DNA of 63,469 bases, counting the filler, from Collodictyon triciliatum (Eukaryota): assembly GCA_043381765.1 (NCBI GenBank). It is 21 parts of 21 records of this genome, joined end to end, with 100 filler letters (N's around TTAATTAATTAA, not from the genome) between each part and the next. Parts side by side here need not be neighbours in the genome. Positions count along the whole stretch, not along the records: positions 3,193 to 6,282 come from JBHJMP010007811.1; 20 more parts are not named here. One strand, written 5' to 3'. The first letter of the stretch is position 1. Every line of letters begins with the position of its first letter. The notes under the pieces are model-generated. The model searched no databases and was not told where the DNA came from. It worked only from the letters and a program-made list of their open reading frames with translations. The translations under genes and the position numbers were made by a program. This document shows positions 3,520 through 4,667 of this stretch, one piece after another.

Positions 3520-4667
3520 ATGAAAACCCTATTATGTAAACTAAACAAGGTAATTCTTTCTCTGAAGCACTGCTCTTTCAAAATCTACTGTGCCATGTCG
3601 AGGGGCAAGACGACTTTCTGATTCGTACATTGACTGGGCATGGGAATGAAGTTAACAGTGTTGCTGTTACTCCTGATGGAACTAGAATTGTCTCTGGAAG
3701 TTGGGATACAACAGTCAAGGTCTGGAATATTACTAGTGGAGATTTGATTCTTACGTTGAAAGACCGTGGCGGTGTTCGGAGTGTTGCTGTTACACCCGAT
3801 GGTTCAAAAATAGTATCTGGGAGCGCTTATGGAACCATCAAAATTTGGAATCTCTCTGATGGAGCTTTGATTCTCGTATTGGACGGGCATGAATATGATG
3901 TTCGGAGTGTCGCTGTTACTCCTGATGGCTCAAAAATTGTATCTGGGGGGTTTGATGAAACAATTAAAATCTGGAACCTTTCTGATGGGGCTTTGATTCG
4001 CACATTGACTGGTCATACAAGTGAAGTTGCCAGCGTTACTGTTACTCCTGATGGAACTAGAATTGTATCTGGAGGTGATGATGTACTGATCAAAATATGG
4101 AACCTTTCTGATGGGGCTTTGATTCGCACATCGATCGGTCATATAAGGGGAGTTTTCAGTGTTGTTGTTACTCTGGATGGTTCAAAAATTGTTTCTGGGG
4201 GTGGTGATAAAATAATCAATATCTGGAACCTTTCTGATGGAGCTCTAATTCGCACATTGACAGGCCATACTAGTGCTGTTTTCAGTGTTGCTGTTACCCC
4301 TGATGGCTCAAAAATTGTTTCTGGGGGTTTGGATAAAACCATCAAAATCTGGAACCTTTCTGATGGGGCTCTAATTCGCACATTAACTGGTCATACTGGT
4401 GATGTTGACAGTGTCGCTATTACTCCAGATGCCTCAATACTGGTTTCTGGGAGTTTTGATGAAACAGTCAAAATTTGGGATTTTTCTGCTGCATTAGACC
4501 CATCTCCATCAGACCCGTCTCCGTCAGATACAAGAACATCAGAACCGTCTTGCTCCACTTCCCTTTCGTCATCCTTCATAGCCATCGCTATTAGTGTCTC
4601 TGTTTGCATCATGCTCACTTCAGCAAACAGCTACTCGTTAGATGAGAGCGAACATATAGAGAACTAG
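3520..4667 (+). CDS. Intronless 7-repeat WD40 protein with Ser/Pro linker and C-terminal hydrophobic segment; apparent frameshift in putative signal peptide
   Basis: ORF 3630-4667 has seven near-identical GH...WN/WD repeats, then DPSPSDPSPSD and FIAIAISVSVCIMLTSA. The ATG at 3520 is out of frame with the repeats by 2 nt at about 3565. Confidence 0.9.

What the first reader, a model, noticed from the sequence alone, without database searches (positions are those of the whole stretch)
3520..4667. Candidate cell-surface WD40 receptor with homogenised repeats and variable binding face
Seen: seven repeats that are near-identical in DNA (e.g. tggaacctttctgatgg..ct.t.attcgcaca) yet differ at two fixed patches: after GH (GNEVNS, RGGVRS, EYDVRS, TSEVAS, IRGVFS, TSAVFS, TGDVDS) and around the tight turn (SWDTT, SAYGT, GFDET, GDDVL, GGDKI, GLDKT, SFDET). 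Six of seven repeats end WN-I-T or WN-L-S instead of WD, giving an N-glycosylation sequon per blade. A signal-peptide-like start, Ser/Pro stalk, hydrophobic segment and short tail complete a type I membrane layout. Established: this variation pattern is known from cytosolic fungal HNWD (HET-E/D) NLRs, and WD40 domains are normally intracellular. Inference: an extracellular, repeat-shuffling recognition-receptor family (prey, pathogen or kin sensing), possibly undescribed.
Basis: partly seen in the sequence, partly recalled or inferred. Interest (0 to 1): 0.78.

Follow-up and report, generated by a model that had tools for sequence, protein, structure and literature searches.

The report
Probable cell-surface WD40 propeller protein
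A small gene in an unidentified freshwater eukaryote encodes a seven-bladed WD40 propeller of a bacterial type that seems to be sent into the secretory pathway and held in a membrane by one helix, an unusual place for this fold in eukaryotes, but the start of the gene is only predicted.

Summary
The repeats are real: seven WD40 units (3618-4496), then a Ser/Pro stalk, a hydrophobic segment and a 15-residue tail. "Near-identical in DNA" is overstated: units are 64-82% identical, with synonymous divergence 0.44-0.65.

The window is a chain of ~3.1-kb contigs, and this gene's contig starts only 350 bases upstream. The best start I can build is a 40-base first exon (3406-3445) plus a 122-base GT-AG intron, which gives a strongly hydrophobic N-terminus. 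A 46%-identical paralogue on another contig has a hydrophobic stretch at the same place, in frame with its own ATG.

The nearest relatives (55-58% identity) are cyanobacterial proteins, many with a membrane helix or signal sequence before the propeller. The same variable positions and WN-L-S/T motifs occur there, so both are family traits.

Best reading (about 0.5): a type I membrane protein with an extracytosolic, bacterial-type WD40 propeller that binds ligands and has no signalling domain of its own. No RNA evidence for the splice, no orthologue and no paralogue census could be obtained. This is a new variant of a known kind, of moderate interest.

The parts
3193..3320 (.). (TTTC)n microsatellite at the first base of this contig, marking an assembly break. 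Sequence upstream of it is unknown.
   Evidence: Similar runs end many other pieces of the window.
3406..3445 (+). Candidate exon 1: ATG plus 12 further codons and one base (phase 1). It has 9 hydrophobic and 4 small polar residues and no charge. An in-frame ATG at 3328 would add 26 residues with net positive charge.
   Evidence: Enumeration of 19 in-frame GT-AG models. This model has the highest hydrophobicity (11-residue mean 2.97). It is predicted only, with no RNA support.
3446..3567 (+). Candidate intron of 122 bases, GTTTGT...pyrimidine tract...AAG.
   Evidence: The acceptor at 3566-3567 has the best pyrimidine tract of the acceptors tried (0.73). A verified intron in the eIF5A gene of another piece is 93 bases, GTGAGT...CAG.
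3568..3617 (+). Start of exon 2. It holds the end of the hydrophobic region, a possible signal-peptidase site (small residues at -3/-1 before 3603), and the start of the strand that closes the propeller.
   Evidence: In the model, residues 1-16 have low confidence and the strand at 17-21 closes blade 7.
3618..4496 (+). Seven WD40 units: 3618-3743, 3744-3866, 3867-3992, 3993-4118, 4119-4244, 4245-4370 and 4371-4496. They form one closed 7-bladed propeller. Hypervariable columns are 9, 10, 11, 13, 29 and 31 (plus 6). W-N-x-S/T occurs at column 36-39 in units 1-6.
   Evidence: AlphaFold2 with a 42-row alignment gives residues 17-309 mostly pLDDT above 95, with 28 strands. Foldseek best match is 7big, TM 0.98 normalised to the target, 46% identity.
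4497..4562 (+). Ser/Pro/Thr-rich stalk of 22 residues, including a 15-base tandem repeat at 4492-4528.
4563..4619 (+). Hydrophobic segment. The core is 4575-4616 (14 residues). It is a predicted single membrane helix.
   Evidence: Kyte-Doolittle 19-residue mean is 2.11, the only window above 1.6 in the protein. AlphaFold2 gave no confident helix here.
4620..4667 (+). 15-residue polar, net acidic tail and the TAG stop.
   Evidence: No Pfam domain was found in the two ORFs scanned downstream, 4975-5265 (minus strand) and 5765-6037 (plus strand).
24135..25388 (+). Paralogue on another contig, 46% identical, with at least 9 blades before it runs off the contig end. It has its own in-frame ATG and a hydrophobic stretch (residues 25-50) directly before blade 1. 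An optional in-frame 60-base intron lies at 24169-24228 (GTAAGC...TTTTTCTAG).
   Evidence: W-N-x-S at 5 of 9 blades. GC3 is 0.32 in both genes.
5850..5985 (-). 136-base element shared at 90% identity with 22305-22440. It ties the two WD40 contigs to one genome.

Best explanation
This is a eukaryotic gene for a single-pass (type I) membrane protein whose whole ectodomain is one closed seven-bladed WD40 propeller of the bacterial, internally repetitive lineage.

Proposed mechanism:
- A short first exon supplies a hydrophobic signal, so the propeller is translocated into the ER lumen.
- The W-N-x-S/T sites at the ends of the c strands, on the face opposite the variable one, can then be N-glycosylated.
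- The Ser/Pro/Thr stalk holds the propeller away from the membrane.
- One helix anchors it, and only 15 acidic residues face the cytosol.
- The top face is built from the most variable residues of each blade (hotspot positions R1-2, R1, D-1 and their neighbours) and binds a ligand.
- With no signalling domain, the protein would act as an adhesin, capture receptor or co-receptor.

Shown: the repeats, the fold, the stalk, the hydrophobic segment and tail, the lineage affinity, and the paralogue's N-terminal hydrophobic stretch.

Inferred: the splice, ER entry, glycosylation, surface location and ligand binding.
For: 1. The repeat frame has no ATG before blade 1, so a start must be spliced on. 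Of 19 in-frame GT-AG models, the one that uses the best acceptor and the GTTTGT donor gives an uncharged, strongly hydrophobic N-terminus (11-residue mean 2.97).
2. The paralogue at 24135-25388 has, without any splicing, an ATG followed by a hydrophobic stretch (19-residue mean up to 1.9) ending right at blade 1. It also has a possible phase-1 intron at the equivalent place. There is no plus-strand ORF over 75 residues in the 1.8 kb upstream of it.
3. A Ser/Pro/Thr stalk, one hydrophobic window (2.11) and a short tail follow the propeller.
4. The propeller is complete on its own: 28 strands, with the first strand closing blade 7.
5. The closest relatives are often extracytoplasmic. 16 of the 27 hits with at least 50% identity have a hydrophobic segment before the propeller. 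The forms are kinase-helix-Ser/Pro linker-WD40, or signal-peptidase/caspase-WD40. PMC7475262 (passages read) proposes the same topology for cyanobacterial orthocaspases.
6. Sequons sit at the WD position in 11 of 16 blades of the two genes, against 88 of 792 blades in the 120 hits. Blades are not independent.
7. Scaffold codons show dN/dS of about 0.2 between units, and the 375-codon frame is intact, so this is not a decaying relic.
8. One 151-base contig of a metatranscriptome run matches 3651-3801 without a difference. This is weak, because DNA can be present in such libraries.
Against: - No RNA read spans the proposed intron. Public runs hold only short pieces of the gene (best share of words 0.13).
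- Other start models exist, including one with no hydrophobic N-terminus (ATG 3520 with a 53-base intron).
- The contig begins 350 bases upstream, and a usable acceptor at 3382-3383 (my reading) would allow further upstream exons.
- No signal-peptide or topology predictor was available. Hydropathy and the -3/-1 rule were applied by hand.
- The tail is acidic, against the positive-inside tendency.
- AlphaFold2 did not predict a helix for the hydrophobic segment (pLDDT 27-45).
- The blades contain no cysteine, so they lack the disulfides seen in the CRINKLY4 ectodomain propeller.
- No relative with the same stalk-helix-tail was found.
Confidence: 0.5

Rival explanations
1. Cytosolic propeller held on an organelle or ER membrane by its C-terminal helix, a tail-anchored or Sec12-like layout. 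The proposed first exon is not used, and the sequons are never glycosylated.
For: - The only hydrophobic window lies 15 residues from the C-terminus, which fits tail-anchor geometry.
- Start models without a hydrophobic N-terminus are possible.
- WD40 propellers are cytosolic or nuclear in nearly all studied eukaryotic cases. This, and the Sec12 comparison, are recalled and not tested here.
- The blades lack cysteines.
Against: - Exon 2 itself begins with a hydrophobic run that has no role in the propeller (residues 1-16 have low confidence).
- The paralogue has a long hydrophobic stretch right after its own ATG.
- The sequon is kept in both diverged paralogues.
Confidence: 0.15
2. The 3' part of a larger gene. 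Upstream exons beyond the contig start would encode a cytosolic domain (kinase, NTPase, protease), and the hydrophobic stretch before blade 1 would be an internal membrane helix, as in the cyanobacterial kinase-helix-WD40 proteins. The propeller would still face outward, between two helices.
For: - The best hits have exactly this order of parts.
- P0019, a low-GC-looking metagenome protein, has a kinase end, a helix, a Ser/Thr linker and WD40.
- The contig starts 350 bases upstream in a microsatellite.
- The frame of exon 1 is open back into the repeat, and an acceptor-like site lies at 3382-3383 (my reading).
Against: - The paralogue has 1.8 kb of upstream sequence with no plus-strand ORF over 75 residues except a repeat element.
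- The one verified intron in the window is 93 bases, so an intron longer than 1.8 kb would be unusual.
- Two in-frame ATGs precede the hydrophobic run.
Confidence: 0.12
3. A non-functional relic of a transferred bacterial WD40 gene, or a gene fragment without a working start.
For: - There is no in-frame ATG in the long ORF.
- No orthologue was found.
- The nearest relatives are bacterial.
Against: - The 375-codon frame is intact, with scaffold dN/dS of about 0.2 between units.
- Codon third-position GC (0.32) matches the paralogue, and the flanks are similarly AT-rich (overall GC 0.31), so any transfer is old.
- A second, diverged, intact member exists.
- One exact RNA-library contig was found.
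Confidence: 0.08

Closest known systems
Cyanobacterial Ser/Thr kinase-helix-WD40 and signal-peptidase/caspase-WD40 proteins (PkwA-type; hits P0001, P0041, P0046, P0002, P0018)
   Same: - Highest sequence identity, 55-58% over about 290 residues.
- The same 42-residue unit consensus, including WN-L-x.
- The same variable positions.
- A Ser/Pro linker next to a membrane helix.
- The propeller is predicted to lie outside the cytoplasm in 16 of the 27 closest hits.
   Different: - No kinase or peptidase domain on this contig.
- The helix is after the propeller, not before it.
- Eukaryotic gene context, with a candidate intron and microsatellites.
- PkwA's own solved propeller (5yzv) is only 34-36% identical.
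WRAP-type recently amplified propellers (Npun_R6612, PDB 2ymu; designed WRAP-T 7big/7bie)
   Same: - Best solved relative by sequence (E 1.7e-147).
- Best by fold (TM 0.98 normalised to the target, rmsd 0.7 A, 45-46% identity).
- Repetitive blades.
   Different: - WRAP has nearly identical blades with no synonymous changes and sits on a STAND ATPase (PMC9218822, passages read).
- Here the median blade identity is 63%, dS is 0.44-0.65, and no ATPase is present.
Fungal HNWD/NWD NOD-like receptors (HET-E, HET-D)
   Same: - 42-residue WD units.
- Variation is concentrated in two pairs of positions, each flanking a conserved residue and 18 residues apart, on the top face (PMC1805685, sections 9-10 read).
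   Different: - No HET or NACHT domain.
- Repeats are far from the up-to-100% identity of HNWD.
- No demonstrated exchange between genes.
- The predicted location is extracytosolic, not cytosolic.
CRINKLY4 receptor-kinase ectodomain propeller of plants
   Same: A eukaryotic single-pass membrane protein with signal peptide, N-glycosylated seven-bladed propeller and membrane helix. The authors call the propeller WD40 (bioRxiv 10.1101/2020.08.10.245050, passages read).
   Different: - CRINKLY4 blades are disulfide-stabilised and resemble BLIP-II and UVR8.
- CRINKLY4 has a cysteine-rich domain and a cytosolic kinase.
- The protein here is a Pfam WD40 (G-beta type) without cysteines in the blades and without a kinase.
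Sec12-type or tail-anchored propeller proteins (recalled, not retrieved here)
   Same: A propeller followed by one C-terminal membrane helix and a very short segment beyond it.
   Different: Those propellers face the cytosol and have no N-terminal signal. Here both paralogues show an N-terminal hydrophobic stretch.

Membership tests
WD40 repeat beta-propeller (Pfam PF00400) | Tandem units of about 40 residues with the GH...WD signature, scoring above the Pfam threshold | tested here: met
   7 stretches, 231.7 bits against a cut-off of 27, E 9.6e-71. The units are aligned.
WD40 repeat beta-propeller (Pfam PF00400) | Closed 7-bladed fold, with the first strand completing the last blade | tested here: met
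   AlphaFold2 gives 28 strands with pLDDT mostly above 95 for residues 17-309. Foldseek TM is 0.92-0.98 (normalised to the target) to WRAP-T, PkwA and WDR5 chains. This is a prediction, not a solved structure.
Fungal HNWD/NWD NLRs | N-terminal HET and/or central NACHT NTPase domain | tested here: not met
   No such domain in the ORF. The 350 bases upstream hold no ORF of that size. Sequence beyond the contig start cannot be seen.
Fungal HNWD/NWD NLRs | Very high nucleotide identity of repeats within and between genes (concerted evolution) | tested here: not met
   - Within the gene, units are 64-82% identical with dS of 0.44-0.65.
- The paralogue is 46% identical in protein.
- In the permutation test, the longest concordant run gave P 0.29 and the sum of squared runs gave P 0.005.
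Fungal HNWD/NWD NLRs | Hypervariable pairs flanking conserved residues at the d-a loop and the b-c turn | tested here: met
   Columns 11/13 flank an invariant V, and columns 29/31 flank a conserved D. The mapping follows PMC1805685 and PMC3419727.
Highly repetitive / recently amplified WD40 (WRAP-like) | Median blade identity above 60% (PMC9218822), or at least 0.7 for 'highly repetitive' (PMC5587647) | tested here: inconclusive
   The median is 63%. This passes the first threshold and falls in the 'moderately repetitive' class of the second.
Highly repetitive / recently amplified WD40 (WRAP-like) | Few or no synonymous differences between blades | tested here: not met
   pS is 0.33-0.43 at scaffold codons.
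Type I single-pass membrane receptor | Cleavable N-terminal signal peptide | tested here: inconclusive
   It is present only in spliced gene models. The paralogue's hydrophobic N-terminus supports it. There is no RNA evidence, and no dedicated predictor was available.
Type I single-pass membrane receptor | One membrane helix after the ectodomain | tested here: met
   A single window with Kyte-Doolittle mean 2.11 at 4563-4619. This rests on hydropathy only, and AlphaFold2 gave no confident helix.
Type I single-pass membrane receptor | Cytosolic signalling domain | tested here: not met
   The tail is 15 residues. No Pfam domain in the two ORFs scanned downstream.
GPI-anchored surface protein | Hydrophobic stretch at the very C-terminus after a short spacer | tested here: not met
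   15 polar and acidic residues follow the hydrophobic stretch.
Bacterial kinase-helix-WD40 sensors | N-terminal Ser/Thr kinase domain in the same protein | tested here: not met
   No kinase match in the ORF. None in the 1.8 kb upstream of the paralogue. Sequence beyond 3193 is unknown.

The most novel reading that the evidence does not exclude
A deep-branching freshwater predatory flagellate may have taken a bacterial, internally repetitive WD40 propeller and rebuilt it as a glycosylated cell-surface recognition receptor family. The host guess rests on the eIF5A gene on another piece, which is 88% identical to the EukProt Diphylleia rotans entry. In this reading, blade-by-blade variation of the top face supplies specificities for prey, bacteria or kin. 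It would be a surface counterpart of the cytosolic WD40 sensors of fungal and bacterial NLR-like proteins.
Probability: 0.25. Interest if true: 0.75.

Novelty: new variant of a known kind. Interest (0 to 1): 0.5.

Why it matters
G-beta-type WD40 propellers are treated as cytosolic or nuclear scaffolds in eukaryotes. A secretory-pathway, membrane-anchored one would add a new ectodomain type to eukaryotic surface receptors. It would also link that type to the extracytoplasmic WD40 sensors that are common but untested in cyanobacteria.

Three full-text searches found no description of such a protein in a eukaryote. The only near case was the CRINKLY4 propeller, which is a different sequence family. 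If the host is a collodictyonid-like flagellate, this concerns a lineage near the base of Amorphea whose cell-surface biology is almost unknown.

The practical value is modest for now. Everything beyond the domain itself rests on a predicted 40-base exon.

Tried and rejected
- **Whole genome:** none is held, so no genome-wide paralogue census was possible.
- **Earlier notes on this genome:** none.
- **Public runs:** 11 of the 15 listed rows hold a part, with a best share of 0.13. Four runs were laid, and only contigs of 151-255 bases lie on the gene. None bridges 3446-3567, so nothing can be said about splicing. Some pieces at 85-90% likeness run on into unlike sequence and look like paralogous repeats. 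I did not count them.
- **Metagenome contigs:** 78 loci with at most 59% identity. The 9 of 78 I read were all bacterial-type architectures, none with the stalk-helix-tail.
- **Tail search:** the last 60 residues against 1.84 billion representatives gave one low-complexity hit only.
- **ESM Atlas:** only generic WD40 clusters.
- **Single-sequence AlphaFold2:** too weak (pLDDT 57.9). It was replaced by the alignment-based model.
- **Ciliate-type code (TAA/TAG = Q):** considered because it would give an in-frame ATG at 3534. Rejected because the two open frames, together about 800 codons, contain no in-frame TAA or TAG.
- **dN/dS of 1.7-1.9 at the variable columns:** not used as evidence of selection, because the columns were chosen for being variable.
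- **Blade tree:** 42 columns and poorly resolved. Three rows were dropped first: one regex artefact of the paralogue and two non-blade stretches of P0088.
- **Rfam and tRNA scans of the window:** only one tRNA-Ala.

Full report
**Setting.** The window is not one stretch of a chromosome. It is 22 pieces of about 3.08 kb, with GC from 0.29 to 0.65, joined by 44 N, TTAATTAATTAA and 44 N. No whole genome is held. The finding lies on the piece 3193-6282. That piece opens with a (TTTC)n microsatellite, and similar runs end many other pieces, including GC-rich ones. Those shared runs are the only sign that the pieces come from one genome, and they are weak evidence.

**The observation.**
- Pfam finds seven WD40 stretches, E 9.6e-71.
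- Tandem Repeats Finder finds a 126-base period with 5.5 copies.
- In register, the units start at 3618, 3744, 3867, 3993, 4119, 4245 and 4371. Unit 2 lacks one codon.
- Six of seven units have W-N-x-S/T where WD is expected, and these are the protein's only sequons.
- The most variable columns are 9, 10, 11, 13, 29 and 31.
- Column 12 is an invariant V, followed by variable column 13, invariant S14 and invariant V15. That matches the (V/L/I)-R1-R2-(V/L/I) bulge signature.
- So columns 11, 13 and 29 are the R1-2, R1 and D-1 top-face hotspots of PMC3419727 (abstract and passages read).
- The geometry is two pairs, 18 residues apart, each around a conserved residue. It equals that of HNWD codons 7/9 and 25/27 (PMC1805685, sections 9 and 10 read).
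- In the structure model these columns fall at the start of strand a and in the b-c turn. The Asn of WN ends strand c, on the other face.

**What is overstated.**
- The units are 64-82% identical in DNA and 45-81% in protein, with a median of 63%.
- The longest exact shared run is 34 bases.
- Synonymous divergence at scaffold codons is 0.44 (units 3-6) to 0.65 (all 21 pairs), with dN/dS of about 0.2.
- A Sawyer-type permutation on 51 polymorphic scaffold sites gave P 0.29 for the longest concordant run and P 0.005 for the sum of squared runs. This is at most a faint mosaic signal.
- In a tree of 48 blades, three rows were dropped first: one regex artefact and two non-blades. Blades 2-6 of this gene group together (support 86/74). 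Blades cluster by protein overall: 11 label changes against a shuffled mean of 32.7, and 0 of 200 shuffles were as low.
- So the array was amplified or homogenised within the gene, but not recently.
- By the published scales it just passes the 60% threshold of PMC9218822. It is 'moderately repetitive' under PMC5587647.
- PMC5587647 also states that repetitive WD40 proteins of prokaryotes, protists and fungia keep diverse hotspot sites on a conserved scaffold (passages read). The pattern is therefore real but generic.

**The ends of the protein.**
- After blade 7 come 22 Ser/Pro/Thr-rich residues, one hydrophobic window (4563-4619, mean 2.11, the only one above 1.6), 15 polar and acidic residues, and TAG.
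- At the 5' end, the repeat frame is open from 3540 but has no ATG.
- I enumerated all GT-AG joins from the six upstream ATGs that keep the frame open. There are 19 models.
- The acceptor at 3566-3567 has the best pyrimidine tract (0.73).
- Joined to the donor at 3446 (a 122-base intron) and the ATG at 3406, it gives 13 uncharged, mostly hydrophobic residues that run on into the hydrophobic start of exon 2 (11-residue mean 2.97). Small residues at -3/-1 follow shortly before the first propeller strand.
- An ATG at 3328 in the same frame would add a 26-residue, net positive N-terminal extension.
- The one intron I could verify in the window is in eIF5A. It was defined by aligning the Diphylleia protein P0124 and is 93 bases, GTGAGT...CAG. 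That makes 122 bases plausible and 32 less so.

**The paralogue.**
- Piece 22305-25388 carries a second WD40 gene. It is 46% identical, has at least nine blades, and runs off the contig.
- It shares a 136-base element with the first contig (90% identity). Its codon third-position GC is the same, 0.32.
- Its ATG (24135) is in frame with the repeats. It is followed by a hydrophobic stretch (19-residue mean up to 1.9) that ends at blade 1.
- A 60-base GTAAGC...TAG intron in phase 1 would shorten this to a classical signal.
- The 1.8 kb upstream has no plus-strand ORF over 75 residues.
- It keeps W-N-x-S at 5 of 9 blades.
- Two diverged genes with a hydrophobic stretch at the same place is my main reason to accept entry into the secretory pathway.

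**Relatives.**
- Among 5.8 billion proteins, 2800 of 8000 scored candidates passed E 0.001. The best 120 reach at most 58% identity, and the named ones are almost all cyanobacterial.
- Of these 120, 29 have an internal hydrophobic segment before the propeller, 22 have an N-terminal one, and 69 have none at my threshold.
- Of the 27 with at least 50% identity, 16 have one, or 20 at a laxer threshold.
- The sequences read show kinase-helix-Ser/Pro linker-WD40, signal-caspase-WD40 and signal-trypsin-like-WD40.
- A review proposes an extracellular WD40 for the orthocaspase-helix-WD40 form (PMC7475262, passages read).
- WN occurs in 321 and W-N-x-S/T in 88 of 792 blades of the hits. 7 of 120 proteins have the sequon in at least half their blades.
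- The sequon is thus inherited. It is enriched here: 11 of 16 blades, Fisher P 1.4e-7, with blades not independent.
- By structure, the nearest chains are WRAP-T designs and the Nostoc WRAP propeller (45-46% identity), then PkwA (34-36%), then WDR5 (33%).
- A bacterial origin by transfer is likely but not shown. Repeat proteins close to the consensus attract each other in searches, and composition shows no recent transfer.

**Searches for the same architecture.**
- The metagenome scan gave 78 loci. The 9 I read were all bacterial-type.
- The tail search gave one low-complexity hit.
- Three literature searches found no eukaryotic protein with a Pfam-type WD40 ectodomain.
- The CRINKLY4 propeller is the nearest concept, but it is a different sequence family.

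**Host.** Other pieces carry exons of tubulin-tyrosine ligase, PIG-V, sortilin, a kinase and eIF5A. The eIF5A is 99% identical to an unnamed NCBI protein and 88% identical to the EukProt Diphylleia rotans entry. The next named hits are fungi and animals at 64-79%. Short exact contigs of the gene occur in freshwater metagenome runs from several studies. If the pieces are one genome, the host is a collodictyonid-like freshwater flagellate. This is tentative.

**Verdict.**
- The domain, its variable face, the sequons, the stalk and the hydrophobic segment are real.
- The reading as a surface-exposed propeller is the best supported (about 0.5) but rests on a predicted exon.
- Homogenisation is weak and old.
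- Family size and diversifying selection are untested.
- It is a new variant of a known kind: an extracytoplasmic WD40 sensor module, here in a eukaryotic type I layout.

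Noticed in passing
window 1-63469: The window is a chain of 22 separate contigs of about 3.08 kb, apparently sorted by length. They are joined by N44-TTAATTAATTAA-N44 linkers, and one 473-base N gap lies at 43468-43940. 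GC per piece ranges from 0.29 to 0.65. Neighbouring pieces are therefore not neighbours in the genome.
   Followed up: yes
window 38378-41296 (minus strand): A 973-codon open frame with 9 Ephrin_rec_like repeats (E 3.6e-65) and an NCD3G-like match, followed by several hydrophobic segments. It looks like a cysteine-rich ectodomain on a multi-pass receptor. It runs to the contig end.
   Followed up: partly
window 57061-57642 (plus strand): An eIF5A gene with one 93-base GTGAGT...CAG intron (57481-57573). An unnamed NCBI protein (P0122, 99% identical) reads straight through this intron, so that record's C-terminus is probably wrong. The closest named relative is the EukProt Diphylleia rotans entry, at 88%.
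   Followed up: partly
window 3193-3320, and ends of pieces near 1-100, 9346-9470, 15935-16190, 28485-28774, 30725-30835, 44266-44685, 50738-50832, 55323-55419, 58514-58591, 63377-63467: (TTTC)n/(GAAA)n microsatellites sit at many contig ends, on AT-rich and GC-rich pieces alike. They probably broke the assembly.
   Followed up: partly
window 5850-5985 and 22305-22440: A 136-base element, 90% identical, in opposite orientation on the two WD40 contigs. A shorter match to 6943-6993 follows it. No Pfam match was found in its open frame (5765-6037).
   Followed up: partly
window 31855-33483 (minus strand); 41530-42291; 47758-50159 (minus strand); 54186-54491 (minus strand): Exon-sized matches to tubulin-tyrosine ligase, PIG-V mannosyltransferase, sortilin/Vps10 and a protein kinase. 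These are typical split eukaryotic genes.
   Followed up: no
protein P0019: A metagenome protein with the end of a kinase domain, one membrane helix, a Ser/Thr/Asn-rich linker and WD40 blades, several with W-N-x-T. Its Asn/Lys/Ile-rich composition suggests a low-GC organism, possibly a eukaryote or a large virus. It may be another WD40 ectodomain outside bacteria.
   Followed up: no
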